Source: Candidatus Hydrogenedens sp. (GTDB lineage: Bacteria; Hydrogenedentota; Hydrogenedentia; Hydrogenedentales; JAEUWI01). From it: DNA of 64,000 nucleotides. Position numbers and translations under genes: made by a program. The stretch's first letter is position 1; every line of letters begins with the position of its first letter. This document shows, piece after piece, positions 7,331 through 44,342 of this stretch. The notes under the pieces are model-generated. The model did not search any database and was not told the origin of the DNA. It worked only from the letters and a program-made list of their open reading frames with translations. The stretch covers positions 438,149 to 502,148 of the forward strand of contig WGMK01000010.1 in assembly GCA_016125095.1 (NCBI GenBank). Reading direction: 5' to 3'.

Positions 7331-7352
7331 GTGGCTCGCGGGTACGCTCGCC
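7331..7352 (+). repeat. dispersed copy of the motif gtggctcgcgggtacgctcgcc between convergent genes
   Basis: Identical 22-mer to the terminal motif of the 57-bp inverted elements at 38459-38515 (reverse) and 38776-38832. Confidence 0.45.
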
Positions 7353-7358
7353 CTCCCG

Positions 7359-8336
7359 TCAGACCTTCACGTAGATGTTGTTGCGCTTGAGGTAGAGCGC
7401 GACGACGTAGCAGACCGTGTAAAAGGCGGCGAAGGAAAGCAGGGCCCAGGCGGCGCTGGCGCTTTCGTCTACCAGGAACGCGCCGTGCAGGCCGATGAGC
7501 GCGTATTGCAGCACGTAGAGCACCAGCGGATTCGAGCCGAGGGTCGTCAGGTGGGGCAGCTGGATGCGGGCGCGGTCGCAAAGCAGGTGGAACGCGGCAT
7601 AGGCCAGGAACGCCATCCCCGTCGAGAGCAGCGCGTAGGGCGAGGTCATGTAGTACTGGCTCTGCGGCCAATGCGGCTTGATGCCGGGCCACGTCGCCTC
7701 GAGTCCCCAGCCCAGGGCGCACAGGCCCAGGCCCCATCCGAAGAGTCCCAGCGCCACGCGGCGCGCGTCGGGGCGTTCCGCGATATCCTGGCAGAGCGTG
7801 CCGAAGAGCAGGATACCGGCCCAGCTGAGAATGCCCAGCGGTCCGCCATTGAAGCTGTTGTGCATCACCCATTCGCCGTAGGGCGTGAGGCTGAAGACGG
7901 CTTGATACGCGCCGATACAGCCGAAGGCGGCCAGCGCCCGGGCGCGGGTGCCCAGCGCGATGAAGGGCAGCGCCACGAGGCCGCCCGCGCCGATATCCAC
8001 CAGCGCGTCCCACCAGTTCTCATAGTCGATCGGGTTGTAGAGCACGATGCCGATGAGCACGAGGATAGCGTAGCGTCGCGCGGCCGAGCCCAGCGCGCCG
8101 AGCAGGCCCATCGCTTCCACGCGCCGCCGCAGCGAAAGCCGGAAGCCCATGCCCACCACGAAGATGAACGCGGGCGCGATGGTGTCGGCGTAGCTGAAGC
8201 CTTCGCGGTGGTGCTTGAACTGCCACGGCATCACCTCGAACTGCCCCAGGAAATTCACAAGGATCATGCCGAAGATGGCATAGCCCCGGAACTGGTCGAT
8301 AGAGGCGATGCGGCGCGGGGGAGACGTCGCTTCCAC
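7359..8336 (-). CDS. DUF1624/DUF5009 membrane acyltransferase-like protein (heparan-alpha-glucosaminide N-acetyltransferase-like)
   Basis: 325 aa; the motif DQFRGYAIFGMILVNF with multiple TM helices is typical of this family. Confidence 0.65.
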   Translation of the reverse strand: MEATSPPRRIASIDQFRGYAIFGMILVNFLGQFEVMPWQFKHHREGFSYADTIAPAFIFVVGMGFRLSLRRRVEAMGLLGALGSAARRYAILVLIGIVLYNPIDYENWWDALVDIGAGGLVALPFIALGTRARALAAFGCIGAYQAVFSLTPYGEWVMHNSFNGGPLGILSWAGILLFGTLCQDIAERPDARRVALGLFGWGLGLCALGWGLEATWPGIKPHWPQSQYYMTSPYALLSTGMAFLAYAAFHLLCDRARIQLPHLTTLGSNPLVLYVLQYALIGLHGAFLVDESASAAWALLSFAAFYTVCYVVALYLKRNNIYVKV

Positions 8337-22147: not shown

Positions 22148-24842
22148 ACCGGGGCGCCGCCATGAGCAGGGCCGCGAGGGCGCGCAGCAAGACGCCCCGG
22201 TCCACCGGCTTCGACAGCAGTTCCGTTCCCGGCTGGGCAAGGAGTTCGTCGGTTACCTGATCGGCGGAGTACCCCGTAAGGAACATGACCGGAATACCCG
22301 GGCGCACTTCCCGTATGCGGGCGAGGGCCTCGGTGCCATTGAGGCGTGGCATCACGACATCGAACAACAGAAAATCGAAGCTGTCGGGTGCAGCCTCGAA
22401 CAGCTCTACCGCCTCGAGTCCGTCCGTGGCGACCGTAACGTCGTAACCGGCTACCGCGAGAATCTGCGTCATGGCCTCGCGTACCAGTTTCTCGTCCTCC
22501 GCGAAGAGTAAGCGGGCAGCGCCGGAGATGGCGACCGCCTCGGCCGGGTGCCGCTCTGCGACCGGGTCCGTTGCGGCCGCGATGGGCAGGCGCACAAGGA
22601 AAGTCGAGCCTTTTCCTGGTTCGCTTTCCACCTGGATGCTGCCGCCATACTGCGTCACGATTCCGTAGACCGTCGAGAGCCCCAGCCCCGTGCCTTCATT
22701 GAGTGGCTTCGTAGTGAAGAAGGGCTCGAAGATATGCGGCAGTACGTCGGGTGGGATGCCTGCCCCGGTGTCGCGGATGCAAATGGCGACATGCGTCGGC
22801 CGGGCGCCCTCGGACAGCGCAATCGTCGGGTCTGCGGGCCCCTCCTGCTCTTGGAGCGAGACATCCAGCACGCCGCCCTGCGGCATGGCATCGCGGGCAT
22901 TGAGCGCCAGGTTCAGCAATACCTGCTGCAGCTGGGTTTCGTCGCAGCGTACGCGCGGCAGGTGTGGCATGGCCTGTAGACGCAGGTCGATACGTTCGCC
23001 CAGCAAGGGGCCGATAAGCTCGGCAGTCCCCTCGGCCACCTCAAGGGCATCGACCGAATGAACGGCGGCCGGCTCATTCCGGCTGAAGGCGAGCAGCTGA
23101 TTGACGATACCTGCTGCGCGCTGGGCGGCCGTGTTGATTCTCAGGAAATAGCCAGCGGGAGTCGCCGGCACATCGCCGCGGCTCATGCCCATCTCAGAAT
23201 ATCCGAGAATTCCCTGCAGCACATTGTTGAAGTCGTGCGCGATGCCGCCCGCGAGCTGCCCGATGGCCTCCAGCTTCTGGGCCTGCAGCAGGTGCTGCTC
23301 ATTGCGGCGCACCGCAGCCTCGGCTTCCTTGCGCGCGGTGATATCGAAGATGACACCCTCAATGAGACGATCGTCTCCCGACTCCAGCACGATGCCCTTG
23401 TCGGCCACCCAGCGAAAGCCGCCGTCGCGGTGGTTGGCGCGGTATTCGAGCGCATAAGCGCGGCGGTTGGCCGCGGCCGTCTCGACCGCAGCGCGCACCA
23501 TGGCCAGGTCTTCCGGGTATACCATCTCCTGCCAGAAATCTATCGCCGGCTCCAGGATTTCATCGGCCGATTTACCCGTGATGCGTTCGAACCAGGGACT
23601 GAGGTAGGTGGCCTGTACCGATTCGCCCAGCGTGCCGCGATAGACCGCGCCGGGTATATTGCGCACGAGTGCGCGGTAGCGCTCCTGGGCCTCTTCGCGC
23701 GCGGCCTCGGCCTTGTGCCGCTCGGTGATATCTCTGAAACTGCCCCAGACGCGGATGATCTGGCGCCCGGCGATGATGCCTTGCGCGCTGTTCTCGAACA
23801 CGCGCGGGCTGCCATCGGTTCCCTCGCCCGAGGTGGGGGCATCCTGCAGCTGGTATCCGCCGACCACGAATTGCCGGCAGATTTCATGGAGCGTGCGGTG
23901 GGTGGGCCGGCCCGTGATGTCGGCAAACCGCACGCCCAGCGCGTCCTCGCGGCGCTTGAATCCGTATTGACGCGCGCATACGTCGTTGCATTCCACCAGC
24001 ACGCCGTTCATCAAGCCCTGAATCTGCTCTTCCTGCGGCAGCTTGGTTGATATGGGCGGGTCGAACTCGTAGCACCAGATGGCATCCGAGGTGCTTTCGA
24101 TCAGGGACTTGTAGCGTTGTTCCCGATCGCGCAGCGCCGCCTCGATGGTCTGGCGCTCGGCAAATTCCTGCTCGCGGCGCATCAGCAATTCGGCATTGCC
24201 CTCGGCCACCTGAATCAGGCGGCGCGTCACTTGACGGCGGCTTTCGAGACCGGCCAGTGCCAGGAAAGCCAGCGCGAATACATAGGTGAGCCAGGCGAGC
24301 GGATCGAGCGACAAGTTCTGCTCGATATACAAAATGGGAATGAGGTCGGTGGCGAGGTAGAGATAGGCGTAGATGGCGTAGGTAACGAGCATGGCACAGA
24401 GCACGGCGAACCCGACGGGATAGCCGACCAGGCCGCCCGCGAAAAACACCGAGCAGAGGAACAGCGGCGGATTCATGCTGCCGAGGCCGTAGAAGTGCAA
24501 CTCGACCACGCCGATGCCGAACATGACCGCGAGGAGGGTGATGGCGCGCACCTGGTAGGGAATCCGCGGATAGAGGTTGGCCGCCAAGACGGAGAAGTAG
24601 CCGATCAGGTATAACGCGGCGCGCAGGTATTCCTCATTGCCGAACCGCCGCGAGACGGTAACATAGACCGCGAAGCCGCCCACGACCGCGAAGATGAGCA
24701 GCATGGCGCGCAGGCTGCGCTCCTGCAACTCCGCCAGCAACTTGCGGGCATCCTGCGGATAATCCGTCGCGCTCATCTTGATGTACTCGCGGAATTGCCC
24801 ACGGTTATGCTCTCCTCCGTCTCCCCGGCTAAACCTTAGCAC
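22146..24842 (-). CDS. hybrid sensor histidine kinase (multi-TM N-terminus, PAS domains, HisKA, HATPase, C-terminal receiver)
   Basis: 898 aa; H-box HDFNNVL, N/G boxes (NLALNARDAM, RDTGAGI, GTGLGLS) and a receiver domain (LLFAEDE...DVVMP). Confidence 0.85.
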   Translation of the reverse strand: MLRFSRGDGGEHNRGQFREYIKMSATDYPQDARKLLAELQERSLRAMLLIFAVVGGFAVYVTVSRRFGNEEYLRAALYLIGYFSVLAANLYPRIPYQVRAITLLAVMFGIGVVELHFYGLGSMNPPLFLCSVFFAGGLVGYPVGFAVLCAMLVTYAIYAYLYLATDLIPILYIEQNLSLDPLAWLTYVFALAFLALAGLESRRQVTRRLIQVAEGNAELLMRREQEFAERQTIEAALRDREQRYKSLIESTSDAIWCYEFDPPISTKLPQEEQIQGLMNGVLVECNDVCARQYGFKRREDALGVRFADITGRPTHRTLHEICRQFVVGGYQLQDAPTSGEGTDGSPRVFENSAQGIIAGRQIIRVWGSFRDITERHKAEAAREEAQERYRALVRNIPGAVYRGTLGESVQATYLSPWFERITGKSADEILEPAIDFWQEMVYPEDLAMVRAAVETAAANRRAYALEYRANHRDGGFRWVADKGIVLESGDDRLIEGVIFDITARKEAEAAVRRNEQHLLQAQKLEAIGQLAGGIAHDFNNVLQGILGYSEMGMSRGDVPATPAGYFLRINTAAQRAAGIVNQLLAFSRNEPAAVHSVDALEVAEGTAELIGPLLGERIDLRLQAMPHLPRVRCDETQLQQVLLNLALNARDAMPQGGVLDVSLQEQEGPADPTIALSEGARPTHVAICIRDTGAGIPPDVLPHIFEPFFTTKPLNEGTGLGLSTVYGIVTQYGGSIQVESEPGKGSTFLVRLPIAAATDPVAERHPAEAVAISGAARLLFAEDEKLVREAMTQILAVAGYDVTVATDGLEAVELFEAAPDSFDFLLFDVVMPRLNGTEALARIREVRPGIPVMFLTGYSADQVTDELLAQPGTELLSKPVDRGVLLRALAALLMAAPR

Positions 24843-24932
24843 GAATCCGCACCGGGCCTAAAGAACAATCGAAACGGCGAGGCCCCCCCGGCGGAACCGG
24901 GGGGGCCTCTATGAGAAGGGAGGGGAGGGGTC

Positions 24933-26873
24933 TTACGACTCAGTCGAAGCCTGCTGCAATTCGCGGTCTTCGCTGTTCGCAAGCGAGGGCGTTTTCTGCG
25001 CCCAGTCGCGATACTTGGGGGGAAGGTCGCCGAACACGTCGGAGGCCATCCAGTTGTACTTGCCTTCCATCATCGCCTTCGCCACCTTGTTGTAGTCCGA
25101 ATTGTGGTTGTGCTTGACCTTGCGGAAGTGGTCTTCGATGCGCTCGCGGGCGCCCTTGCACCACAGGTCGGCCAGTTCCACCGGCGTCTTGTCCTTCGGG
25201 TTCTTGTCGAGCAGCTGCTCGGCCTTCGCCAGGCAGCAGCCCATCACGAACAGGTCCACGCCGATTTCCACAAAGTGGCTCAGGAGGATCTGTTCGAACT
25301 CGAGCTTCGGACCGAACTTGGCCATGGTGTGGAAGAGCGAGCGGGCCAGACGCTTGCTGGTGCGCGCCGCATAGGCCAGGTGTTCCTGGCAGGCGCCGTC
25401 GAGGTGCTTCACGTTGAAGTCGGTGCTCGAGGGCATGTACAGCGACGGGTACCAGGTGGAGTAGAACTTGAAGGCGTTCCAGATGAGCGAAAGCTTGCTC
25501 TCCTTCTGGCCCGGCTTCGGCATCATCAGCGGCATCACCAGCTTGAAGTGCGTGTCCATGGCTTCGCGCGCCATGATCAGGTGCATCACTTCGCTGGAGC
25601 CCTCGAAGATGCGGCCCACGCGGCCGTCGCGTGCGAAACGATTCACCGGCATCGGGCGCTCGCCGCGGTTGTAGAGCGAGGTGTCGGTTTCGAAGCCGCG
25701 GCCGCCGCGCACCTGGATCAGTTCATCCAGCACACGGTGCGAAGTCTCGGTGCAGAAATACTTGGCCGCGGCGGCTTCCAGGCGGATATCGGCATTCGCG
25801 CGGTCGGCGAAGCTGCACGCCAGGTAAACAAGCGCGTCCATCGCGAAGATGTCGGCCACCATGCCGGCGATCTTCTTGGAGATGGACTGGTGACGGCCGA
25901 TCGGCACGCCCCACTGCACGCGCGAGGTGACCCAGTCCTGGATGGGCTCGATGAGGCCGGCCAGGGTGCCGGTGCTGGCCGCGGGAATGCCCAGGCGGCC
26001 GGCGTTCAGCGTGGTGAGCGCGATCTTGAGACCCATGCCCGGCTTGCCGATCATGTTCTCGGCGGGCACCTTCACGTTCGTGAACTTGATCAGGCCGTTG
26101 CTCAGGCCGTGCAGGCCCATGAAGTTGCAGCGGTGCAGCAGCTCGACGCCTTCGCTCTCGGTTTCTACCACGAAGGTCGAGATCTGCTTGATTTCCTTGC
26201 CGTTCTTCTGCAGCGGCGGGGTCTGCGCCATCACCACCATCAGCTTCGAATCGGGGCCGTTGGTGCACCACAGCTTCGTGCCGTTGATGAGGTAGTGGCT
26301 GCCGTCTTCCGTCGGCGTCGCCGAGGTGGACATCTTGGCCGGGTCCGAACCCACATCCGGCTCGGTCAGTGCGAAGGCGCTGATTTCGCCCGCGGCCAGG
26401 CGCGGCAGGAACTTCTGCTTCTGTTCCTTGGTACCGAACAGCTTGAGCGGCTGCGGCACGCCGATCGACTGGTGCGCCGATACATACGTAACCGTGGTCT
26501 GGCAGTAGCTGCCCATGAAACGCAGCAGGCGGGCGTAGTTCCACTGGGTCAGGCCCAGGCCGCCGTATTCCTTGCTGATCTTCATGCCGAAGAGGCCGAT
26601 CTTCGCCAAGCCGTCGAGCGTGGCCTGCGGGAACACGCCCGTCTCGTCCAGGAGGATCGGGTCGTGCTGTTCCATCACCTCGCGCGTCTTCTCAATCAGC
26701 TCATCGCCGATGCGCTTGTCTTCCGGATCCTGCTCGGGATACGGGTGCAGCAGGTCCCAGCGGAAGTTTCCGCGGAACATTTCGGCGGTGAAACTCGGGA
26801 ACTTCCATTCCGTTTCACGCGCAGACTCGGCCATTTCCATGGCGGCATCTTTGGCGGCATTGTTTTCAGCCAT
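24933..26873 (-). CDS. acyl-CoA dehydrogenase, long FadE-like form
   Basis: 646 aa; ACAD N-terminal, middle and C-terminal domain signatures (FGMKISKEYGG, TEPDVGSD, YLINGTKLWCTNG, IFEGSSEV). Confidence 0.85.
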   Translation of the reverse strand: MAENNAAKDAAMEMAESARETEWKFPSFTAEMFRGNFRWDLLHPYPEQDPEDKRIGDELIEKTREVMEQHDPILLDETGVFPQATLDGLAKIGLFGMKISKEYGGLGLTQWNYARLLRFMGSYCQTTVTYVSAHQSIGVPQPLKLFGTKEQKQKFLPRLAAGEISAFALTEPDVGSDPAKMSTSATPTEDGSHYLINGTKLWCTNGPDSKLMVVMAQTPPLQKNGKEIKQISTFVVETESEGVELLHRCNFMGLHGLSNGLIKFTNVKVPAENMIGKPGMGLKIALTTLNAGRLGIPAASTGTLAGLIEPIQDWVTSRVQWGVPIGRHQSISKKIAGMVADIFAMDALVYLACSFADRANADIRLEAAAAKYFCTETSHRVLDELIQVRGGRGFETDTSLYNRGERPMPVNRFARDGRVGRIFEGSSEVMHLIMAREAMDTHFKLVMPLMMPKPGQKESKLSLIWNAFKFYSTWYPSLYMPSSTDFNVKHLDGACQEHLAYAARTSKRLARSLFHTMAKFGPKLEFEQILLSHFVEIGVDLFVMGCCLAKAEQLLDKNPKDKTPVELADLWCKGARERIEDHFRKVKHNHNSDYNKVAKAMMEGKYNWMASDVFGDLPPKYRDWAQKTPSLANSEDRELQQASTES

Positions 26874-27156
26874 GACACACCTCTCTTAGGGTTGCGGTTG
26901 AGTACCGGTTTTTCTGCTACCTAACGACCGGTAGGTATTCTAACACGCAGGCAATCATCGGTCAAGCAAAACCTGCGCAAGCCACACAGGCAACAGCCAT
27001 TAGACCTGCCATAAAGACACCCGGTTCCAAGGCGGCTATTCCGGAGGGGTATGCATCGCAGCTCAGCGCCATAATTCGTATAATTATTAGCCGTGCGATT
27101 GACCGAGAGCCCGAGGGGGAGTAGGGTAGAGCATCGACAACGGAGGTACCAGAACC

Positions 27157-27417
27157 ATGACCGAAGCCGACCGGGCCGATTTCAGCAGCACCGACTACGA
27201 CCATCTGGCCCCGGGCATGAGTTACGGCGAGGTGGCCTCCCGCCTGAACGGCGAGGGCCTGCTGCTCTCCAACAACGTGGCCCAGCTCGAACCCGGTTTC
27301 TGGCTCTGCAGCATGACCACCCAAGTCTACGAATGGCACAACGCCGAAGGCGCGATCATCCGCGTCATGTTCGGCGACGACGGCCTGCGCGACAAATCGC
27401 AGTGCGGCCTGGGGTGA
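27157..27417 (+). CDS. small hypothetical protein (BamE/SmpA_OmlA-like fold suspected)
   Basis: 86 aa; GGAGG RBS 9 nt upstream. PGMSYGEVASRLNGEG and the C-terminal RVMFGDDG resemble the BamE-like fold. Its 3' end lies within a 47-bp direct repeat. Confidence 0.5.
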   Translation: MTEADRADFSSTDYDHLAPGMSYGEVASRLNGEGLLLSNNVAQLEPGFWLCSMTTQVYEWHNAEGAIIRVMFGDDGLRDKSQCGLG

Positions 27418-27422
27418 GGGGG
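27376..27422 (+). repeat. left copy of 47-bp direct repeat (1 mismatch to the copy at 28604..28650)
   Basis: gacgacggcctgcgcgacaaatcgcagtgcGgcctggggtgaggggg. Confidence 0.8.
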
Positions 27423-27491
27423 CCCTGGGGGCGCGGTTCGACGCGCTGGGTGTGATGAGTGTGGGAACACAACAAGTGGAGGAAGCGATAG

Positions 27492-28463
27492 ATGAACTTA
27501 TCCAATAAGTTGGATTTCGTCTTTGTTACGCTGATTACTGCGACCTTGGCGCTGTTGATTCCGCAGCCATGCGTGGCCAGCGGGCTGGGGGATGATAGAA
27601 ACGCGCAAATCGCAACAAACGAAATTGCAACTTCGGATGCCTCCACGTTTCCGCTTAACATTGCACAAGTGTCTCCAATCGACGCCCAGCGTGAATCCGG
27701 TGATGCCTATCCAGACTATTTTTTGAAGATGGTCCAGTATTGTTATGACATCCAGGGCCGCGTGGACCAAATAGGCGAATTGGAACGTGAATACTTGCGT
27801 CGGAGACTAAACGATCCGGAGATGCGGGAGTATTGGGGGTGTATGGCGGTCTTGCTTGCATTACATGATAGGTCGGAACAAACTGCTGAGGAGTTGCTAG
27901 CCTTCGTAATTAGGACCTACGGACCATGCGACGAGGATCGCGGTGACTTCAACTTGATGATGACGAAGGCTTGGGCAGTGACGATGTTGGGTTTTATAGA
28001 CTACCCGATAAGTCGGCAGGCACTGATGAGAATTGCGGCATCGATAAATGTCTCCAGTTTGTTTCAGAATTGGGAAGATGATGATTTTGTATCTGCAGTT
28101 GCTGCGTCGCCTTACTCGGCATTTCAAGATGTAATTCGCGGAGCAGCGTATAAGGGGCTTGCGATTATGGGGGGGCGTGAAAACAATGAATACTTGCGAA
28201 GCGAATTCGCTCGTATTAGAAGCGATCCGGGAGAGCTCTTATCCGGCGCCGGGCCTATGCTAAAAGGGCATGTGTATTTGTTAAAGGAGGCTCTGGCAAT
28301 CGCGGATTTTGTGGTGGATTCTGGTACGGATGCATATGTAAAGGTCTTGAGCAGCAAGGATGAATGGGGTAAAGTGTATAATAAGTATTCTCCAAGATAC
28401 GATATACCGGATGAGGAGAGAGAATCTAAAATGAAGCAGCTGGCCGAGGAGAGGGCTAAGTAG
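27492..28463 (+). CDS. secreted hypothetical protein encoded on a low-GC insert
   Basis: 323 aa; signal peptide MNLSNKLDFVFVTLITATLALLIPQPCVA. GC content is much lower than in flanking DNA. Confidence 0.6.
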   Translation: MNLSNKLDFVFVTLITATLALLIPQPCVASGLGDDRNAQIATNEIATSDASTFPLNIAQVSPIDAQRESGDAYPDYFLKMVQYCYDIQGRVDQIGELEREYLRRRLNDPEMREYWGCMAVLLALHDRSEQTAEELLAFVIRTYGPCDEDRGDFNLMMTKAWAVTMLGFIDYPISRQALMRIAASINVSSLFQNWEDDDFVSAVAASPYSAFQDVIRGAAYKGLAIMGGRENNEYLRSEFARIRSDPGELLSGAGPMLKGHVYLLKEALAIADFVVDSGTDAYVKVLSSKDEWGKVYNKYSPRYDIPDEERESKMKQLAEERAK

Positions 28464-28603
28464 ATCTTTGGATACTGTCTCGCGTGATACTTGAAGCATC
28501 GGAAAAATTCAGGCCTCAGGTAAGGGGGCTCTGTGTTTTTTTGTCTATGCTGCCTGCCTGTTTTCGACTTGGCTTTTCATGTTTTGTGGTCGTTGCTACC
28601 TCT

Positions 28604-28650
28604 GACGACGGCCTGCGCGACAAATCGCAGTGCAGCCTGGGGTGAGGGGG
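28604..28650 (+). repeat. right copy of 47-bp direct repeat
   Basis: gacgacggcctgcgcgacaaatcgcagtgcAgcctggggtgaggggg. Confidence 0.8.
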
Positions 28651-28664
28651 AGATACGACTAGGT

Positions 28665-30155
28665 CTACTGTACAGAAACGAGTACCTGCTCGAGGCTTTC
28701 GGCGACGGTGTCGGCCATGGATTCGAGGGCGGGGAGGCGCATGTGGCACATGTCCATGAAGTACGGGATGCCTCCGCGCACGTTTTCGGCGACGGGAATA
28801 TAGATCGCGCCTTCCGCCTCGCAGAACCGCTTGAGTTCGTCGTTGCACAGGTCGACCACCTTGCCGTAGCTGAGGCTGTCGAGGTCGGTGCATCGCGGGT
28901 CGAATCTGGTGTAGAGGATGTAGTCGGGTTCGGATGTGTCGAGGGTGGGGTAGGCGAAGCTGGCGAAAGCGACCCGGGCGCCGGCGGAGCGGCAGGCCTC
29001 GAGCGTCGCCTTGAAATTGTCCAGGGTCGCATCGCGATACCCGCGGCGGATGGCCTCTTTGCCGGGCAGCAGCCAGGCATTGAAGTGCAGCCGCACGAAG
29101 GTAGAGCGCGCGAGGAAGGCCTTGATAAGGTCCGTAATCGACGCCCCGTACCAGCCGCGGTGGCTTGGCAGGAAGTCGTTGATGAAATTGTATTGGACGA
29201 CGATGTCGGGCTGCAGGGCGAGGATGTCGGGCAGGAGCTTGCGCACGGTATCGCTGCCCGCGGCGTATACCCCGCAATTCACCACCTCGATACGGTCGTC
29301 GCCCAGGGCGGTGCGCAGACGCTGCTCGGTCAGGTTGGGGTAGGTCAGGTCGCCGCGAGGTCCGCCTGCGGTGGTCGAGCCGCCGATACAGACGATGCGG
29401 CGCACGCCGTCCGGCTTGGGCACTTCCATGGGGTCGTCGCGCCAGCCTTGGGCGTTGGTGCGCAGCCGGGTGGGGGCGCCCCATTGTTCAAGCGGATTGG
29501 TCACATCGATATTCGCACGGTAGCGGAGCCCGAATTGTTCCCACAGGCTGAGACCGACGCGCAAGGGGAGCGTGCCGCTCGCATGGTCCACCGTGCCGAT
29601 ATGCCATTCGCTGAGGCACGATGAGCCATCCGGCAGGGACAGATTGTAAAATCGCGCCGGGGCGGCGTTTCCTTGCCTTGCCGATTCCAGCGCAGAGTGG
29701 AAGTCTGCCGCCTCGGCCGGATTGAGCAGCGAAAGCACCGATTCGTCCGGCCGCACGCGTTCGGCTGTGGTCGCAAGCTTTTCGTCGGAGTGTCGGTCGG
29801 GCGGAAAGCTTGCGTGTATTACGCCGGCCGCATCCACCCGCACCAGCCAATACCCCGTGCGGCCGGCCAGAGCCGCACACGCTGCGTCATCCCCCGAATT
29901 CAACACGGCCTCCCATGCGGCAGCGTCTTTGTCAGGTTCTGGCGCCGCCGACGGATCGGGGATCCCCGACACCCGCTGCAGGTCCCGCGCGCGTGCTTCC
30001 TCCGCGAGGGGAGTGCCGTAGGCGATTGCCTGTTCCCGCACCTGCGGCAGTTCCATGCGCGCCCAGAGTTCCAACGCCAGGCACGCGACAACCGCCACGC
30101 CCAGGGCGCTTGCCACGTAGAAGCATACGATTCCCGCTCGCCGTACTATCCGCAT
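28665..30155 (-). CDS. membrane-anchored SGNH/GDSL-family hydrolase-like protein
   Basis: 496 aa; an N-terminal TM helix, and a C-terminal region (RRIVCIGGSTTAGG...DIVVQYNFINDF) that resembles SGNH hydrolases. Confidence 0.55.
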   Translation of the reverse strand: MRIVRRAGIVCFYVASALGVAVVACLALELWARMELPQVREQAIAYGTPLAEEARARDLQRVSGIPDPSAAPEPDKDAAAWEAVLNSGDDAACAALAGRTGYWLVRVDAAGVIHASFPPDRHSDEKLATTAERVRPDESVLSLLNPAEAADFHSALESARQGNAAPARFYNLSLPDGSSCLSEWHIGTVDHASGTLPLRVGLSLWEQFGLRYRANIDVTNPLEQWGAPTRLRTNAQGWRDDPMEVPKPDGVRRIVCIGGSTTAGGPRGDLTYPNLTEQRLRTALGDDRIEVVNCGVYAAGSDTVRKLLPDILALQPDIVVQYNFINDFLPSHRGWYGASITDLIKAFLARSTFVRLHFNAWLLPGKEAIRRGYRDATLDNFKATLEACRSAGARVAFASFAYPTLDTSEPDYILYTRFDPRCTDLDSLSYGKVVDLCNDELKRFCEAEGAIYIPVAENVRGGIPYFMDMCHMRLPALESMADTVAESLEQVLVSVQ

Positions 30156-30220
30156 GGCCGGGATGATAGCAGCTACAGTGTGGATGCGGGGTAGCCCGCG
30201 TCGGGGCTAACCCGATGCCA

Positions 30221-30270
30221 ACGCGCCAAGGAGGTCGCCGCGCTTCGCTCGCGATAACGAGGTTGGGTGG
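30221..30270 (+). repeat. partial dispersed copy (~80% identity) of the right arm of the 38.5 kb repeat unit
   Basis: acgcgccaaggaggtcgccgcgcttcgctcgcgataacgaggttgggtgg compared with the unit segment caaagaggttgccgcgctccgctcgcaatgacgatgttggcgg. Confidence 0.4.
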
Positions 30271-30412
30271 CTGAGGCTCCGAGACAAGGCCTATCGAGTA
30301 CGATCAAACGCATCCGGTATCGCCCTTGCGAGGAGTGAGTCTTCGAGCGACGCCGCAATCTCTCTGGCGCGCGGGCGTAGGTACCAGCCGGGTCAAACCC
30401 AGTGCAGTGGAA

Positions 30413-30985
30413 TCAGTCCTCGATCAGGATGAACCGAGTGGTTGCGGCAAAGAGATACCCCGTCGAGGAAATGCGCCGTTCCAACGGCAGGCACGTATCG
30501 GCGCAAAAGGTCCAGCGCGTCCGCGTACCGATGAAATACGACCGGAACCGCCGTTTTGGTTCACTGGTGCCCAGTAGGTATAGGGTCTGGCCTGCAGCCG
30601 TACGCCTTATCCTGCTGGAAAGTTTCGGATTCTCTCGAAGCGACTGAAAGAACACGGGCGACGGATAGTTGTCGCGATACTTTGTCAGCGGTTCCCGTTT
30701 CTTTTTCCCCGGGTCATCTCCGATTTGCATGCGCTTCGTCAGCGTTCGACCATTGCATTGGTACTCGATTCTCGTACGAAAACCGCTCCTGCCGTAACCC
30801 CGTGTGTCGTAATCCTCGACAGCCTCGTACCCCCATTTCTTTCCGTCGTTAAAGAACTCGAAAGTGCCGGTGCACTTCATCCACGGCGGCATTGCCCGCG
30901 TTTCAATGTGGAAACGATATCGGCACGGGCCGGTCCAGTGCGCTTCCAGTTGGTCGAGTATTTGTTCGGTAGAACGTGCTTGCAC
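30413..30985 (-). CDS. hypothetical protein, lower GC than surroundings
   Basis: 190 aa ORF with no signal peptide and no recognisable motifs; GC is about 54%. Confidence 0.45.
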   Translation of the reverse strand: MQARSTEQILDQLEAHWTGPCRYRFHIETRAMPPWMKCTGTFEFFNDGKKWGYEAVEDYDTRGYGRSGFRTRIEYQCNGRTLTKRMQIGDDPGKKKREPLTKYRDNYPSPVFFQSLRENPKLSSRIRRTAAGQTLYLLGTSEPKRRFRSYFIGTRTRWTFCADTCLPLERRISSTGYLFAATTRFILIED

Positions 30986-31138
30986 GAGACCTTTCCTCTA
31001 ACGCTGGCCGGCGGTTGCCCCTGCCTCGCTTTCCAACAATCCATTCAGCAGCCCGGATAGAACTCCGTCCTACGGCGGAAATTCGATGGCGGCGGTACCG
31101 GCCTTGCCGTTCCCGCCGCCATTGGTTTTTATTCCCGT

Positions 31139-32863
31139 TTATCCCTTCGCCGGGGGCTCGGGCTTTTGCTCAGCGGGCTTGGGGGCCTCGGGTTTCGCGG
31201 CGGCCGGTTTGGACTCCGCGGCCTTCGGTTCGGGCTGGGCCGCTTCGTCTTCGTTGATGCGGACGAGGTATTCGGGCAGCTCGATGCCGGCGATGTCTTT
31301 CATGGTGTGCAGCATGGGGGGGAGGACGTTGGCCATGCCGCTAAGGAAGTTGGCGGTGTTGCTTTTGCCGTTGGCGCCTGCGCCGCCGTTTTCCCACACG
31401 ACGACCTTGTCGAACTTGATCTTCGAGATGGCCTCGGCGGAGGTCTTCGCAAGCTGGTCGATGTGCTCGAGCATGAGCATGCGGAAGGCTGCGTCGGCGT
31501 TGCCGCAGGCGTTCACAATTTCGCGGAGGCCTTCGCCCTTCTGGCGCAGCTTTTCGTATTCGCCGCGGGCCTCGGCCTCGAGCCGCGCGAAGATGGCCTT
31601 GGCCTCGCCTTCCGCCTCAATGCGGCGCTTCTCGGCCTCGGCTTCTGCTTCCACGATCGTCTTGGCCTTTTCGGCCTTGGCCGGGGCTTCCAGCTCGGCG
31701 CGGCGCTGGGCCTCGACGCGCTCGGCATCGGCCAGGGCGGCCTTGGCCAGCGCGAGGTTGCGCGCTTCCAACACGGCGGCCTTCGATTGCTCGGTCTTGG
31801 TTTCGGCCAGCTGATAGGCAGTCGCTTCCTGCACCTTCAGTTCCGCCTGAGACTTGGCGACGGCGGCCTTCGAGGTGTTTTCGCCCTCGATGGCGCGGGC
31901 GTCGGCCTCGGCCACGCGGATGCGCTTGTCGCGCTCGGCGTCATTCACTTCCATTTCGCGCTGGAAGGCCGCCTTCTGTTCGCCGATTTTCGCCTGGGCG
32001 TCGGCATTGGCCACCGACACGCGCATCTCGCGCTCTGCTTCCTTCACCGCGATGTCGCGCCCGAAGGCGGCGCGCTCTTCGCCGACCTTCTGCTCCTTCT
32101 CGAATTCGGCGATACGGATGGCCTGCTCGCGCTCGGCGGCCTTAATGCCCACGGCTTGGTTCTTGTGCGCCTCGGCGACCTGCACCTCCTTCTCGCGCAC
32201 GTTCTCCGCCACCTTTATCTCGCCCATCTTTTCCTGCTCGGCCACGTCGGCGCGCGCCTGCTGCACGGCCTCCGAAGCGGCCTTCTTGCCGATGGCCTCG
32301 ATATAGCCCGAATTGTCGGTGATATCGGTGATGTTCACGTTGATCAGCACGAGGCCGATCTTGCGCAGCTCGGGCTCGAGCGAGTTGAGGATCTTCGAGA
32401 GGAAGTTGTCGCGGTCGCGGTTGATTTCCTCGATGCGCATCGAGGCGATCACCTGGCGCAGCTGGCCGAAGATGATGTCTTCCGACTGCTTCTTGATGGC
32501 GGCGACCGGCAGCCCGAGCAGACGGATGGCGGCGTTGTTCATGGTGACGGCGTCGGTGCCGATGGCCACGGTGAACACGCTGGGCACGTTTACGCGGATG
32601 TTCTCCATTGAGAGGGCATCGCGCAGCGGCACTTCAATCTGGATGGGCTCGAGGCTCAGGAAGGCGTGGTCCTGGATGAGCGGCACGATGAAGGCCGCGC
32701 CGCCGTGGATGCAGCGCGAACTGCTGCCGCCGCCCACCTTGCCATAGATCACCATGATATTGTTGCTGGGGCAGCGCTTGTAGCGCGTGGCCAGCAGCAT
32801 GAGAAAGCTCGCCAGCACAATGGCAATGACGACGGCGATAATCGATGCGGTGATTCCAAACAT
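31139..32863 (-). CDS. flotillin / SPFH-domain protein (YqiK/FloA-like)
   Basis: 574 aa; an N-terminal TM helix, an SPFH/band-7 domain, a long E/A/K-rich coiled coil and a PAPKPAEQKPEPP tail. Confidence 0.85.
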   Translation of the reverse strand: MFGITASIIAVVIAIVLASFLMLLATRYKRCPSNNIMVIYGKVGGGSSSRCIHGGAAFIVPLIQDHAFLSLEPIQIEVPLRDALSMENIRVNVPSVFTVAIGTDAVTMNNAAIRLLGLPVAAIKKQSEDIIFGQLRQVIASMRIEEINRDRDNFLSKILNSLEPELRKIGLVLINVNITDITDNSGYIEAIGKKAASEAVQQARADVAEQEKMGEIKVAENVREKEVQVAEAHKNQAVGIKAAEREQAIRIAEFEKEQKVGEERAAFGRDIAVKEAEREMRVSVANADAQAKIGEQKAAFQREMEVNDAERDKRIRVAEADARAIEGENTSKAAVAKSQAELKVQEATAYQLAETKTEQSKAAVLEARNLALAKAALADAERVEAQRRAELEAPAKAEKAKTIVEAEAEAEKRRIEAEGEAKAIFARLEAEARGEYEKLRQKGEGLREIVNACGNADAAFRMLMLEHIDQLAKTSAEAISKIKFDKVVVWENGGAGANGKSNTANFLSGMANVLPPMLHTMKDIAGIELPEYLVRINEDEAAQPEPKAAESKPAAAKPEAPKPAEQKPEPPAKG

Positions 32864-32878
32864 GTTGGTGTCCTTCCC

Positions 32879-33502
32879 CTATCGGGCGGGCCGCTTAACT
32901 GCGACCGTGTTTTCGTTGAGTATTTCGACGACTTCCACGAGTGCTCCGGTGGGCAGGGCGTCGCCATCGGTCACCGCCTCCAGCTCGACCGAGCGGTCGC
33001 GCGCAGCCACGGTCACTTTGCCCGAGCCGCTGCGGGCCGCCGGTATCGCCAGGTAGACCGTCGCCGGGGCGCCCAGCACGGAAATGATCTGGAAGGTGCC
33101 GTCGTGCTTGAGGGCATAGAGCAGGTGCATGAGCCAGGCCACGGCGAACAGCGCCGCGGCGCCGCTGAGAATGGCGGCGACATAGCTGGCGTAGGGCCCC
33201 GCGCCGATCGATTGCGCCAGCAGCCCGCCCAGGCCGAAGAAAGCCACGCCCGCCACGATGCTGCGGATACTGAGTGCATGGAAAAATACGGTCGAATCGC
33301 CTAGCGGCTCGCCCGCATCGTCCAGCATGTCGAGGTCGGTGCGGGCGTCGGCCTCGCCCGAAAAATCGGTGTGCAGGTCGTGCCCGGCGCCGTCGAGATC
33401 GCCCATGCCGTGGCCGCCGTCGAGCCCCATGAACGTGAGCGCGAACATGATAATCAGCAGCGTGCTGCCGCCCGCCGCGCACACGAGAAATACCGTGAAC
33501 AT
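32879..33502 (-). CDS. NfeD/YqiJ-like membrane protein (flotillin-associated)
   Basis: 207 aa; TM helices plus a C-terminal OB-fold-like segment (GKVTVAARDRSVELEAV...VEVVEILNENTVAVKR). It lies immediately upstream of the flotillin gene, as in yqiJK. Confidence 0.7.
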   Translation of the reverse strand: MFTVFLVCAAGGSTLLIIMFALTFMGLDGGHGMGDLDGAGHDLHTDFSGEADARTDLDMLDDAGEPLGDSTVFFHALSIRSIVAGVAFFGLGGLLAQSIGAGPYASYVAAILSGAAALFAVAWLMHLLYALKHDGTFQIISVLGAPATVYLAIPAARSGSGKVTVAARDRSVELEAVTDGDALPTGALVEVVEILNENTVAVKRPAR

Positions 33503-38458: not shown

Positions 38459-39088
38459 GGCGAGCGTACCCGCGAGCCACTGGGCCGGAGCGTTCGGCTC
38501 ATGGGGACATTCGCCCCACCCTGCGGCCACGGTGATGCTGGACCGGAGCGATCGTATCGCATCTTCCGTCATTGCGAACGCAGTGCGGCAACCTCCTTGG
38601 CGCGTGGGTGTCCATGCGGAGCAGGGTACCGACACCACCGTGCTGGCGGCGGTCTACATGACATTTCTGCGTCGCCGCATCAAAGAGGTTGCCGCGCTCC
38701 GCTCGCAATGACGATGTTGGCGGCCTGGAGGGAGGAAACCCGCGTGATGACGCTGTAAGCGCGGCGGCATGGTAGGGCGAATGTCCCCATGAGCCGAGCG
38801 CGCCGGTCCAGTGGCTCGCGGGTACGCTCGCCTTACCGTGCGGCCATCGTGATGTGCTGGACCGGAGCGGCTGTATCCCTCTTACCGTCATTGCGAACGA
38901 AGTGCGGCAACCTCCTTGGCGCGTGGGTGTCCATGCGGAGCAGGGTACCGACACCACCGTGCTGGCGGCGGTCTACATGACATTTCTGCGTCGCCGCATC
39001 AAAGAGGTTGCCGCGCTCCGCTTGCAATGATGACGTTGGTGGTCTGGGCTCCGGTCCCATAGGTCCCATAAGCCCCATGGGTCCCATG
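38459..39088. repeat. complex structured repeat array: two ~210-bp units, each preceded by a 57-bp element in opposite orientations, plus (G/A)GYCCCAT heptamer repeats
   Basis: 57-bp inverted repeat at 38459-38515 vs 38776-38832. Units at ~38516-38730 and ~38833-39050 are ~95% identical. Each unit contains a 27-bp internal inverted repeat (38570-38596 vs 38685-38711). Heptamers lie at 39053-39088. Confidence 0.85.
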
Positions 39089-42737: not shown

Positions 42738-43100
42738 AGATGGATGGCATATTCCGGCCTAACCACGGCAGTGGTTAATTGATTGTAGCCCCGGGTCGGT
42801 CGGCGTCTTCGACGACCCACCCGGGGTAAAGCGGCCGCCATGACAACCGCGGAAGCGGTTGATGAAATTCTCGCTTGGCCAAGCCGGTTCAGCAACCGCT
42901 GCCGCGGTTGGTTGTGGACCGCGTTTGTCCCCGGGTAGCTCCGCGAAGCGCGGCGCAACCCGGGCTTCGATAAATCAACTGCTGCCGCAGTTGGGAAGAG
43001 CGGACCGTTACGCCTGCACGATACTTCCGCCGTCGGGACGCTGGCGCGCCCTCGTAAGTGGTTGCTATACTTCCGGCTTCGTATTCACCGGGAGCCGTAC

Positions 43101-44342
43101 ATGAGCCACGAAACCACCATTACCGTCGAGGTCCGCGAGGACCATTTGGACCTGTTGGCGCGCACGAAGCCGATGACGGCGCTGGCGGAACTGATCTGGA
43201 ACGCGCTGGACGCCGAGGCGACCGAGGTGCGGGTGGTCTTCGAGGAGAACGAACTGGGCGGGCTGGAGGCGGTGCGTATCGTGGACAACGGCACGGGCCT
43301 GCGGCACGACGACGCGCTCATCGTCTTCCGGAACCTGGGTGGCTCTTGGAAGCGCCAGGGGCCGCGCACGACGGACCGCCCGCGCGCACTGCACGGCAAG
43401 TTCGGCAAGGGCCGATTCCGCGCGTTTTCGCTGGGACACGACGTGCGCTGGAATTCGGTGTTCGAAGACCAGGGCCAGCGCCGTACCTTCACCGTGAGCG
43501 GCAAGGCCTCGCGCCTGGGCGAGTTCGTGGTGAGCGATGCCGAGGGGGCCGATGCCGCTGCCGGCATGCAGGTGGAAATCACCAACGTGTCGAACGCCGC
43601 AAACCTGTTGCGCGGCGTGAAGGCGAACCAGGAAGTGACCGACACCTTCGCGCTCTACCTGCGCCAATACCCGGGCGTGCGGATTATCTACGACAACACC
43701 CCGCTCGACCCCGCGAATTCGGAGCGGCACTTTACCGAGTACGCCTTGGAGCCGATGGTGACCGAGAACGGCGATCCGGTGACGGCAGCGCTGACGGTGG
43801 TCGAGTGGAACATTTCCGGCAAGCGTGGCGTGTTCCTGTGCGACGCCGAGGGTTTCGCATTGCACAACGGGCTGCCCCGGCTGCATTTCCGGGGCTTCAG
43901 TTATACCGCGTACATCAAGTCGTCGCACATCGAGGCGCTCGAGCGGCAGGGCCTGCTGCAGGCGGGAGAGCTTTCGGCCGATGTGCGACAATTGCTCGAC
44001 GCAGCGCGCGCCAAGCTGCGCGAGCACTTCGCGCTGCGCGAAGCCGAGCGCGCCCAGGACGTGCTCGCCGACTGGCGGGAGATGGGATTATACCCCTACG
44101 CAGGCGAGCCTCGGGATGAAAATGAATCCAACGAGCGCCGCATCTTCGATATCTACGCCACCCACTTGAACCAGATCTCGCCCGATTTCGCTTCGTGGCC
44201 ACTACAGAACAAGCGTCTGGTCCTTCAGCTCATCCAGGAACTCGTGCGCACCGAGCCGACCCGGGTCGCCCATATTCTCGACAGCGTCATCGAATTTCCG
44301 GAAGAGAAGGAGGGGGAAATTCTGGAGTTGGTACAGTCATGA
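43101..44342 (+). CDS. GHKL-superfamily ATPase (HATPase_c_3/MORC-like Bergerat fold) with ~250 aa C-terminal domain of unknown function
   Basis: Bergerat-fold motifs ELIWNALDA (ExxxNxxD), VDNGTGL (DxGxG) and GKFGKGRF (GxxGxG). The stop overlaps the downstream gene start (ATGA). Confidence 0.65.
   Translation: MSHETTITVEVREDHLDLLARTKPMTALAELIWNALDAEATEVRVVFEENELGGLEAVRIVDNGTGLRHDDALIVFRNLGGSWKRQGPRTTDRPRALHGKFGKGRFRAFSLGHDVRWNSVFEDQGQRRTFTVSGKASRLGEFVVSDAEGADAAAGMQVEITNVSNAANLLRGVKANQEVTDTFALYLRQYPGVRIIYDNTPLDPANSERHFTEYALEPMVTENGDPVTAALTVVEWNISGKRGVFLCDAEGFALHNGLPRLHFRGFSYTAYIKSSHIEALERQGLLQAGELSADVRQLLDAARAKLREHFALREAERAQDVLADWREMGLYPYAGEPRDENESNERRIFDIYATHLNQISPDFASWPLQNKRLVLQLIQELVRTEPTRVAHILDSVIEFPEEKEGEILELVQS

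What the first reader, a model, noticed from the sequence alone, without database searches (positions are those of the whole stretch)
27376..28650. 1.2 kb low-GC insertion flanked by 47-bp direct repeats that duplicate the 3' end of a small gene
An identical 47-mer (1 mismatch) occurs at 27376-27422, forming the last 14 codons plus the stop of the 86-aa ORF, and again at 28604-28650. Between the copies lies a markedly AT-richer segment encoding a single signal-peptide protein of unknown function, followed by an AT-rich tail. This is the signature of site-specific integration into the 3' end of a gene that reconstitutes the gene end, as in attL/attR. No integrase is encoded inside it. It may be a decayed or trans-mobilised mini-element, and its cargo is a secreted protein.
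Basis: seen in the sequence. Interest (0 to 1): 0.65.

Follow-up and report, generated by a model that had tools for sequence, protein, structure and literature searches.

The report
Repeat-bounded foreign single-gene islet
A 1.2-kb stretch of foreign, AT-richer DNA carrying one gene for an exported helical-repeat protein sits at the very end of a small gene in an uncultured Hydrogenedens bacterium, bounded by a 47-base duplication that keeps that gene intact; this is the usual scar of an integrated mobile element that has no integrase of its own, so it is real but not a new kind of thing.

Summary
A 47-nt direct repeat (46/47 identical) lies at 27376-27422 and 28604-28650, and these are its only copies in 64 kb. 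Copy 1 is the last 13 codons, the stop and 5 nt of an 86-aa gene. The 1181 nt between the copies have 49% GC against 63% for the window. They hold one ORF (323 aa), which has the lowest GC3 (0.53) and codon adaptation in the window. An independent assembly (Logan) is 100% identical across the locus.

The cargo is an exported HEAT-like alpha-solenoid from a very rare family: 6 proteins among 1.84 billion representatives. Every family member I could examine has much lower GC3 than its neighbours. One distant homologue (L036) is also bounded by significant direct repeats.

There is no integrase, transposase, tRNA, terminal inverted repeat, attC-like or dif-like site at the locus, and no recombinase gene in the 64-kb window. 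I found no empty site and no second copy of the 47-mer anywhere, so the att reading stays an inference.

Most likely this is an integrase-less integrated islet (CIME-like) left by recombination at the gene's 3' end. Campbell-type homologous integration or repair-generated target duplication cannot be excluded. Moderate-to-low interest; new member of a known kind.

The parts
27157..27417 (+). Target gene ('gene86', GC168_07570, MBI1318794.1): 86-aa protein with host-like composition and a weak BLIP/DUF3862-like domain. Its last 13 codons plus stop lie in repeat copy 1.
   Evidence: ORF. GC 0.648, GC3 0.87. Sub-threshold Pfam DUF3862 hit (E 0.0024) and PHROG BLIP hit (E 2e-4). Single homologue P0003, 73% identical with the same C-terminus. 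Accession.
27376..27422 (+). Direct repeat copy 1 (attL-like): the functional 3' end of gene86 plus 5 nt.
27423..27491 (+). Left inner end of the insertion: a 69-nt GC-rich (0.62) spacer. It contains a small hairpin (GCGCG-GTTCGA-CGCGC) and a Shine-Dalgarno-like GGAGGA 7-12 nt before the cargo ATG. No promoter-like site.
   Evidence: Sequence. GC. The fold of 27376-27470 is more stable than all 200 shuffles (z -3.7). No + strand promoter-like site.
27492..28463 (+). Cargo gene (GC168_07575, MBI1318795.1): 323 aa, N-terminal signal-peptide-like helix followed by a HEAT-like alpha-solenoid. Foreign codon usage.
   Evidence: Composition. No Pfam, NCBIfam, PHROG or PADLOC family. Only 5 distant homologues among 1.84 billion representatives. 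AF2 with a 5-sequence alignment gave pLDDT 69, above 80-90 for most of residues 210-323. Best PDB folds are alphaRep/HEAT repeats, with no significant match. Homologue P0006 hits HEAT_2/HEAT_PBS.
28464..28603 (+). AT-rich, T-rich tail (GC 0.457): the right inner end of the insertion.
28512..28540 (+). Terminator-like hairpin plus T-run downstream of the cargo. It overlaps a weak third partial copy of the repeat end (28512-28533, 18/22 identical to 27406-27427).
   Evidence: Terminator-like site. Partial copy. With a fair search space it is only p about 0.025, and 11 of 201 other window chunks score as well, so it may be chance.
28604..28650 (+). Direct repeat copy 2 (attR-like): a non-functional duplicate of the gene end (Gly to Ser change). 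It ends 14 nt before the stop codon of the convergent GDSL gene.
28665..30155 (-). Right flank: convergent 496-aa membrane-anchored GDSL/SGNH-type hydrolase gene with host-like composition.
   Evidence: Pfam Lipase_GDSL_2, E 5e-8. GC 0.651.
24933..26873 (-). Left flank: divergent acyl-CoA dehydrogenase gene, used as the synteny anchor.
   Evidence: Pfam. Relatives L002-L005.

Best explanation
This is a small integrated genomic islet in a Candidatus Hydrogenedens chromosome. About 1.18 kb of foreign DNA carries one promoter-less gene, with its own ribosome-binding site and terminator-like hairpin, for an exported HEAT-like helical-repeat protein. It was recombined into the last 47 bp of a small resident gene.

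The most likely mechanism is conservative site-specific recombination of the tyrosine-recombinase type. It would occur between the gene end (attB) and an identical stretch on a circular incoming element (attP). This duplicates the 47 bp as attL and attR and leaves the resident gene with a complete 3' end.

The element has no recombinase of its own. It is therefore either the decayed remnant of a larger element or a cis-mobilizable module that depends on an integrase encoded elsewhere.

The cargo is probably read through from the resident gene's promoter.

Shown: the repeat, its identity with the native gene end, the foreign composition, the single cargo gene, and the absence of recombinase genes in 64 kb.

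Inferred: the circular intermediate, the recombinase, any present-day mobility, co-transcription, and export of the cargo.
For: - The repeat is 47 nt, 46/47 identical, occurs only twice in 64 kb and has chance expectation 0.
- Copy 1 encodes a C-terminus conserved in the only homologue, so the duplicated sequence is host gene sequence and the gene stays intact.
- The enclosed DNA has GC 0.49 against 0.63, GC3 0.53 against about 0.8-0.88, and the lowest codon-adaptation value of the ten genes scored.
- An independent assembly is identical over 7 kb.
- There are no terminal inverted repeats, and a 47-bp duplication is far longer than transposase-made duplications. This argues against transposition.
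- A repeat tens of bp long that overlaps a gene's 3' end is the classical footprint of integrase-mediated integration. Integrase-less derivatives that keep attL/attR are a described category, the CIMEs (PMC5704250). Att-flanked remnants are also described next to tycheposons (10.1101/2020.12.28.424599).
- The cargo family looks horizontally mobile in general. It has 6 members among 1.84 billion representatives, and all have GC3 0.39-0.53 against 0.53-0.83 in their neighbours.
- One distant member (L036) is itself bounded by a highly significant imperfect direct repeat with a perfect 21-nt core.
Against: - No integrase or any recombinase was found in about 46 ORFs across the 64-kb window.
- No empty site, no circular junction and no other copy of the 47-mer or of its degenerate coding pattern turned up in JGI metagenomes or viral contigs.
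- The repeat has no statistically supported core-type inverted repeat.
- The first 69 nt inside copy 1 are host-like in GC. An att model must explain this as a captured arm.
- The repeat in L036 is unrelated in sequence and appears to cover a gene start rather than a gene end. A single conserved att site is therefore not shared across the cargo family.
- The cargo has no relatives in phages, plasmids or viral contigs.
Confidence: 0.5

Rival explanations
1. Campbell-type integration by general homologous recombination. A small circular DNA that already carried a copy of the host gene end, for example one excised earlier by repeat-by-repeat recombination from a conspecific cell, recombined with the chromosome through RecA. 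This duplicates the 47 bp without any dedicated integrase.
For: The geometry is identical to what is seen. No integrase is in the element or the window. The repeat has no recognisable recombinase core. In L036 a different, longer, host-specific repeat bounds a homologous cargo. That fits homology-driven integration better than a conserved att site.
Against: 47 bp is near the lower limit for efficient RecA-dependent recombination (established knowledge; not tested here). This model does not explain how foreign low-GC DNA first acquired a host gene end. No circular form has been observed.
Confidence: 0.17
2. Illegitimate insertion with a long target-site duplication. Foreign DNA was captured at a break or stalled fork, by staggered nicks about 47 bp apart with fill-in, or by template switching that re-copied 47 bp. 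The repeat would then be a by-product of repair and was never an att site.
For: Both copies are host sequence and nearly identical. The one difference is a G-to-A change in the unconstrained copy, as expected for a post-insertion mutation. There are no recombinase or transposase genes and no terminal inverted repeats. The repeat length and sequence differ in L036.
Against: The insertion lies exactly so that the resident ORF, its stop codon and the convergent neighbour 14 nt beyond copy 2 are all preserved, which is more typical of evolved site-specific elements. I know of no described bacterial mechanism that regularly gives 47-bp duplications around kb-sized inserts (my own knowledge; not tested).
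Confidence: 0.15
3. The cargo is a long-resident gene whose low GC is intrinsic to the family, and the 47-bp duplication is an unrelated local rearrangement.
For: Every family member examined has low GC3 in its own genome: GC3 0.39, 0.47, 0.52 and 0.53 against neighbours at 0.53-0.88 (the L035 member, at 0.42, has no called neighbours). This could reflect a family-specific constraint rather than recent transfer. L037 shows no flanking repeat.
Against: The family has an extremely sparse, patchy distribution. The closest relative with a conserved neighbour gene, L003 (ACAD 83% identical), has no gene86, cargo or GDSL gene beside it. The compositional boundary coincides with the repeat. No known selective reason keeps GC3 near 0.5 in a genome at about 0.85.
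Confidence: 0.08
4. Assembly artefact. The chromosome has a single 47-mer, and a separate small circular or foreign molecule sharing it was threaded into the contig.
For: This is a metagenome-assembled genome. Both assemblies probably derive from the same run, and I could not inspect reads or coverage.
Against: Two different assemblers give the identical sequence. The copies differ at position 31, so they share at most 30 consecutive bases and are distinguishable by k-mers of 31 or more. Even under this rival, a foreign molecule carrying the host gene end would be a real attP-bearing element.
Confidence: 0.05

Closest known systems
CIMEs (cis-mobilizable elements) of streptococcal ICE/IME systems
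   Same: An integrated segment bounded by direct repeats (attL/attR). One repeat rebuilds the 3' end of the target gene, and there are no integration or transfer genes inside (definition in PMC5704250).
   Different: No ICE/IME or integrase with the same specificity is known here. The att function is untested. The element is far smaller (1.2 kb, one gene). The host is an uncultured Hydrogenedentota, and the target is a tiny BLIP-like gene.
Remnant or cargo-only units next to tycheposons and other tyrosine-recombinase islands
   Same: Foreign cargo lies between partial copies of the target gene's end, which marks earlier integrations (10.1101/2020.12.28.424599).
   Different: Those elements target tRNA genes and sit in islands that also contain integrase-bearing elements. 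Here there are no tRNAs in 64 kb, no integrase and no island.
Integron gene cassettes
   Same: About 1 kb, a single promoter-less ORF with its own ribosome-binding site, and foreign composition.
   Different: No attC: no GTTRRRY core at or beside the repeats and no significant hairpin. No integron integrase. The repeat is coding sequence of a resident gene.
Xer-dependent modules (IMEX, pdif modules)
   Same: Small cargo modules without a recombinase of their own, mobilised by host recombinases.
   Different: No dif-like XerD arm anywhere in the window at up to 2 mismatches. The repeats are direct and coding, not 28-bp XerC/XerD sites.
Insertion-duplication (Campbell) integration of circular DNA
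   Same: It gives exactly this product: an insert flanked by a direct duplication of the shared segment.
   Different: It is known mainly as a laboratory or plasmid phenomenon with longer homology. A natural source for the circle is not identified here.

Membership tests
att-bounded integrated element lacking its own integrase (CIME-like) | Direct repeats bound the segment, and one copy forms the intact 3' end of the target gene | tested here: met
   47 nt, 46/47 identical. Copy 1 is codons 74-86 plus stop of gene86. The C-terminus is conserved in homologue P0003.
att-bounded integrated element lacking its own integrase (CIME-like) | The enclosed DNA is foreign to the host | tested here: met
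   GC 0.49 against 0.63; GC3 0.53 against 0.79-0.88; codon-adaptation value 0.28 against 0.58-0.80. The cargo has no close relatives.
att-bounded integrated element lacking its own integrase (CIME-like) | No integration or transfer genes inside | tested here: met
   The only credible ORF is a HEAT-like protein. 1.18 kb is too small for a tyrosine recombinase in addition.
att-bounded integrated element lacking its own integrase (CIME-like) | The repeats are substrates of a site-specific recombinase (excision, circular form, empty sites) | not testable with these tools
   No read-level data. The only homologous locus (L002) ends 4 nt after the stop codon. Exact-protein look-ups of gene86, cargo, GDSL and ACAD return only one contig.
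att-bounded integrated element lacking its own integrase (CIME-like) | A cognate integrase, or an integrase-bearing element using the same site, exists | tested here: inconclusive
   None in the 64-kb window. The degenerate 47-mer pattern gave only chance hits in JGI metagenomes and none in viral contigs. The rest of the 539-kb contig and genome could not be read.
att-bounded integrated element lacking its own integrase (CIME-like) | Core-type inverted repeat around a crossover region within the identity segment | tested here: inconclusive
   An imperfect palindrome, GGCC.GC..GCGA-CAAA-TCGC...GC.GGCC, is present. Its fold is not better than shuffles (z -0.5 to -1.9).
Transposon / IS / MITE | Terminal inverted repeats and a short, fixed-length target duplication; a transposase for autonomous copies | tested here: not met
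   Inner ends show no inverted repeat (score 14 against 13.9 +/- 2.4). The duplication is 47 bp. No transposase in the window.
Integron gene cassette | attC site (R''/R' cores, foldable imperfect palindrome) at the cassette 3' end; integron integrase or attC array nearby | tested here: not met
   No GTTRRRY at or beside either repeat (L001 coordinate = window - 23223). The tail plus repeat fold has z -1.3. No IntI-like gene.
Xer-exploiting element (IMEX / pdif module) | Flanking dif-like 28-bp XerC/XerD sites | tested here: not met
   No match to the conserved XerD arm TTATGTTAAAT at up to 2 mismatches anywhere in the window. The dif sequence of this phylum is unknown, which limits the test.
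HEAT/PBS-lyase-like repeat proteins (cargo protein) | Alpha-solenoid of paired helices; match to HEAT-type profiles | tested here: inconclusive
   The model is all-helical. Best PDB matches are alphaRep/HEAT proteins but with E >= 0.14. The cargo itself has no Pfam hit. Only the distant homologue P0006 hits HEAT_2/HEAT_PBS.

The most novel reading that the evidence does not exclude
The cargo family defines a previously undescribed kind of integrase-less single-gene module. A roughly 1.1-1.2-kb low-GC unit encoding an exported HEAT-like protein would insert next to or into the ends of resident genes in unrelated GC-rich bacteria. Each time it would create a long, host-specific duplication (47 bp here, more than 100 bp in L036) that preserves the flanking gene. 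The mechanism would be neither classical att recombination nor transposition.
Probability: 0.1. Interest if true: 0.7.

Novelty: new member of a known kind. Interest (0 to 1): 0.36.

Why it matters
If the att reading is right, this is one of the smallest natural integrated modules, and a first look at site-specific gene acquisition in the uncultured phylum Hydrogenedentota. The target is a protein-gene end rather than a tRNA.

It also flags a very rare family of exported helical-repeat proteins that looks foreign in every genome where it occurs. That would make the family a candidate for a niche-specific, horizontally traded surface or periplasmic function.

Practically, the locus gives two exact junction sequences, the empty site and the circle. 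These can be searched for in reads to measure whether such integrase-less modules still move.

Tried and rejected
**Searches for an empty site**
- gene86 has one homologue among 5.8 billion proteins. It lies on a 635-bp contig that stops 4 nt after the stop codon.
- A GTDB genome scan with the gene86 alignment found nothing.
- A GTDB scan with the neighbouring ACAD gene found relatives (L003 83%, L004 69%, L005 56%), but none has gene86, cargo or GDSL beside it.
- Exact-protein look-ups of gene86, cargo, GDSL and ACAD return only the one Logan contig.

**Is the 47-mer a dispersed repeat?**
- A degenerate coding pattern of the repeat gave 9 chance hits in JGI metagenomes, none encoding a relative, and no hits in viral contigs.

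**Is the cargo on known mobile elements?**
- There is no DNA or protein match in plasmids or phages.
- Viral contigs gave no match with the cargo or with three of its homologues.

**Tested and rejected**
- Transposon or MITE: no terminal inverted repeats.
- Integron cassette: no attC core or hairpin.
- Xer/dif module.
- tRNA target.
- Any Rfam RNA at the locus.
- Defence system.
- Polymorphic-toxin/immunity reading: I considered it briefly because homologue P0007 follows a giant secreted protein with a 1-nt gap. That protein has only adhesin-type domains (TSP_3, LTD, Ig-like) and no toxin domain.

**Tested and downgraded**
- A third partial repeat copy at 28512-28533 looked significant against the tail alone, but with a fair search space it is only p about 0.025.
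- The inverted repeat between copy 1 and the following 69 nt is not significant by alignment (150/1000), although the 95-nt fold is unusually stable.
- The upstream and downstream flanks of the two copies share nothing beyond the 47 nt.

**Technical limits**
- Single-sequence AlphaFold was useless (pLDDT 39).
- The afdb50 fold library was unavailable.
Full report
**1. The observation**

GACGACGGCCTGCGCGACAAATCGCAGTGC[G/A]GCCTGGGGTGAGGGGG occurs at 27376-27422 and at 28604-28650. It is 47 nt long with one mismatch at position 31. At up to three mismatches these are the only two copies in the 64-kb window, and none of 100 dinucleotide shuffles gave any.

Copy 1 is codons 74-86, the TGA and five further bases of the 86-aa ORF 27157-27417. 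That makes 13 sense codons plus stop, not 14.

Copy 2 sits 14 nt before the stop codon of a convergent 496-aa GDSL/SGNH-type gene at 28665-30155. Outside the 47 nt, the sequences before and after the two copies share nothing.

**2. The DNA between the copies is foreign in composition**

- Positions 27423-28603 (1181 nt) have GC 0.491. The 86-aa gene has 0.648, the GDSL gene 0.651, the acyl-CoA dehydrogenase gene 0.625 and the window 0.628.
- The single credible ORF (27492-28463, 323 aa) has GC3 0.53. This is far below the flanking genes (0.79-0.88) and lower than every credible ORF in the window; the one lower value (0.43, at 43058-44119) belongs to an ORF I judged a doubtful call.
- Its codon-adaptation value relative to 11 housekeeping genes is 0.28, against 0.76, 0.58 and 0.80 for its three neighbours.
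- The drop is not uniform. The first 69 nt after copy 1 are still 62% GC, and the 140-nt tail before copy 2 is 46% GC and T-rich.

The cargo has a GGAGGA motif 7-12 nt before its ATG and no promoter-like site ahead of it. A terminator-like hairpin with a T-run follows it at 28512-28540. It therefore looks like a promoter-less gene read from the promoter of the small gene upstream. This is an inference.

**3. Provenance and reliability**

Both proteins are annotated as hypothetical proteins GC168_07570 and GC168_07575 (MBI1318794.1 and MBI1318795.1). They come from a Candidatus Hydrogenedens sp. MAG, on a 539-kb contig.

A Logan assembly of run SRR10063241 is 100% identical to window 23224-30251. 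The two repeat copies share at most 30 consecutive identical bases, so they are distinguishable in assembly. I could not inspect reads or coverage.

**4. The duplicated sequence is host sequence**

The 86-aa protein has a single homologue among 5.8 billion clustered proteins. This is P0003 (73% identity), which has the same C-terminus, FGDDGLRDKSQ(A/C)GLG. It lies beside the same divergent acyl-CoA dehydrogenase gene, with the same 283-284-nt spacer.

At the mismatch position, copy 1 (GGC, Gly) agrees with the homologue (GGG, Gly). Copy 2 has AGC (Ser). So copy 1 is the functional gene end and copy 2 a free-drifting duplicate.

The small protein gives only sub-threshold hits to BLIP/DUF3862-type domains.

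**5. The cargo protein**

It matches no Pfam, NCBIfam, PHROG or PADLOC family. The word-indexed search of 5.8 billion proteins found only itself.

An exhaustive HMMER scan of 1.84 billion representatives found five distant relatives: P0004 (E 1e-21, 29% identity) and P0005-P0008 (E 3e-5 to 5e-4). All have an N-terminal hydrophobic segment followed by the conserved region. P0006 carries three copies of the domain and hits HEAT_2 and HEAT_PBS.

With the 5-sequence alignment, AlphaFold gives an all-helical model with mean pLDDT 69, and above 80-90 over most of residues 210-323. Its best PDB neighbours are alphaRep/HEAT-like solenoids, but none is significant (E >= 0.14). I read it as an exported or membrane-anchored HEAT-like alpha-solenoid of unknown function.

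**6. A family-level pattern**

Each family member has a far lower GC3 than its neighbours:

| Locus | Family member | Member GC3 | Neighbour GC3 |
|---|---|---|---|
| Window | cargo | 0.53 | about 0.8-0.88 |
| L036 | P0005 | 0.47 | 0.80-0.83 |
| L037 | P0008 | 0.52 | 0.65-0.81 |
| L030 | P0007 | 0.39 | 0.53 |
| L035 | P0004 | 0.42 | short GC-richer flanks |

In L036 the gene is also bounded by an imperfect direct repeat. It has a perfect 21-nt core (15-35 and 1249-1269) within about 120-165 nt of roughly 85% similarity with indels. The alignment scores 85, against 30 +/- 5 for 500 dinucleotide shuffles. The start-to-start spacing of 1234-1296 nt resembles the 1228 nt here.

That repeat is unrelated in sequence to the 47-mer. 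It seems to cover the 5' end of a divergent gene rather than a 3' end, although this reading rests on a pipeline gene call at a contig edge. L037 has no flanking repeat. P0007 directly follows a giant adhesin-like gene.

The family therefore looks horizontally traded, and twice it sits in a repeat-bounded unit of about 1.2 kb. There is no shared att sequence.

**7. What the locus is not**

- No integrase, other recombinase or transposase is present in about 46 ORFs across the window. The window is an ordinary housekeeping neighbourhood: aconitase-family enzyme, pyruvate dehydrogenase complex, LeuRS, ArgJ and so on.
- There are no tRNA or tmRNA genes in the window and no Rfam family at the locus.
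- The inner ends of the insert have no terminal inverted repeats.
- There is no attC core at or next to the repeats and no significant hairpin in the tail plus repeat.
- No dif-like XerD arm occurs anywhere in the window.
- The imperfect palindrome inside the 47-mer is not better than shuffles.
- A third partial copy of the repeat end at 28512-28533 (18/22) is only marginal once the search space is fair. It reaches p about 0.025, and 11 of 201 other window chunks score as well.

**8. What could not be found**

I found no empty site, no circular junction, and no second locus with the 47-mer.

- GTDB species representatives contain no gene86 relative.
- The closest genome with the neighbouring dehydrogenase (L003, 83% identity) has different genes beside it.
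- The degenerate coding pattern of the repeat gave only chance hits in JGI metagenomes and none in viral contigs.
- The cargo and its homologues are absent from phage, plasmid and viral collections.
- Exact-protein look-ups for all four genes of the locus return only the single Logan contig.

**9. Mechanism**

Three features point to recombination between the gene end and an identical stretch on a circular incoming molecule:

- the duplication is a 47-bp stretch of the host gene end;
- the resident ORF, its stop codon and the tightly abutting convergent gene are all preserved;
- the compositional break coincides with the repeat.

This is the standard attB x attP to attL/attR outcome of tyrosine-recombinase elements. 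Integrase-less derivatives that keep attL and attR are a recognised category (CIMEs; PMC5704250). Att-flanked remnants accumulate next to active elements such as tycheposons (10.1101/2020.12.28.424599).

I give this reading about 0.5. The same product arises from three other routes:

- RecA-mediated Campbell integration of a circle that already carries the host fragment (about 0.17).
- Repair- or replication-based capture with a long target duplication (about 0.15). The G-to-A drift in the unconstrained copy and the different repeat in L036 fit these two at least as well as they fit the att model.
- A resident gene with intrinsically odd composition (about 0.08), or an assembly artefact (about 0.05). 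Both are less likely.

**10. Verdict**

The locus is a new, very small example of a known kind, an integrase-less, repeat-bounded integrated islet, in a poorly studied phylum. The one element that could raise it above the ordinary is the hint that its rare cargo family recurs as low-GC, repeat-bounded single-gene units in unrelated genomes. With two such loci and no shared repeat, that hint is still thin.

Noticed in passing
window 38500-39050 (also 7331-7368): Two copies of a ~230-nt repeat lie just downstream of the LeuRS gene: 193 nt at 93% identity, at 38536-38728 and 38855-39047, spaced 319 nt apart. Each copy has a long internal inverted repeat (CATTGCGAACG.AGTGCGGCAACCTCCTTGG … CAAAGAGGTTGCCGCGCTCCGCT.GCAATG). 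A 38-nt piece recurs at 7331-7368 (84%). It looks like a MITE-like element or a structured RNA. No Rfam family reaches gathering score.
   Followed up: partly
L036 1-1400 (JGI 3300001239, contig Draft_10353665): A distant homologue of the cargo (P0005, GC3 0.47 against 0.80-0.83 for neighbours) is bounded by a highly significant CT-rich imperfect direct repeat with a perfect 21-nt core. The contig starts inside the left copy, so its full extent is unknown.
   Followed up: partly
L030-L034 (Logan SRR336962xx/SRR33696254): Cargo homologue P0007 starts 1 nt after the stop codon of a secreted protein of at least 1186 aa with TSP_3, lamin-tail and Ig-like domains. Three of the five contigs end exactly 326 nt after P0007, which suggests a repeat or a strain-variable boundary there.
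   Followed up: no
window 27376-27470: The 95 nt formed by repeat copy 1 plus the next 48 nt fold much more stably than shuffles (-24.6 kcal/mol, z -3.7, 0 of 200). This could be a terminator or attenuator between the small gene and the cargo, or part of a recombination site. It was not resolved.
   Followed up: partly
window 30413-30985 (-): This 190-aa ORF next to the GDSL gene has lowered GC (0.56), GC3 0.65 and a codon-adaptation value of 0.37. It matches no family in Pfam, NCBIfam, PHROGs or PADLOC. It may be another acquired gene in a variable region beside the acyl-CoA dehydrogenase gene.
   Followed up: partly
window 2323-6385: This is a lower-GC patch. It holds a ParD-like antitoxin (2323-2607), a Yip1-domain protein, and two adjacent nucleotidyltransferase (NTP_transf_2) genes (4898-5320, 5525-6385) that share an 80-nt stretch at 73% identity. 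It may be a toxin-antitoxin or MNT-type cluster.
   Followed up: no
window 63769-64000 (-): A bacterial RNase P RNA (class A, 173 bits) is cut off by the end of the window.
   Followed up: no
window 56327-56695 (+): An RRM_1 RNA-binding protein has a long GGC-repeat (Gly/Tyr/Arg-rich) tail. This tail accounts for the tandem-repeat calls at 56579-56686.
   Followed up: no
L003 versus window 26874-32900: Synteny with the closest GTDB relative (Hydrogenedentales MAG, ACAD 83% identical) breaks immediately beside the ACAD gene. L003 has a twin-arginine xylose-isomerase-like protein and a large O-antigen-ligase/TPR protein there, instead of gene86, cargo, GDSL and flotillin. The flank of ACAD is therefore a variable region in this lineage.
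   Followed up: partly
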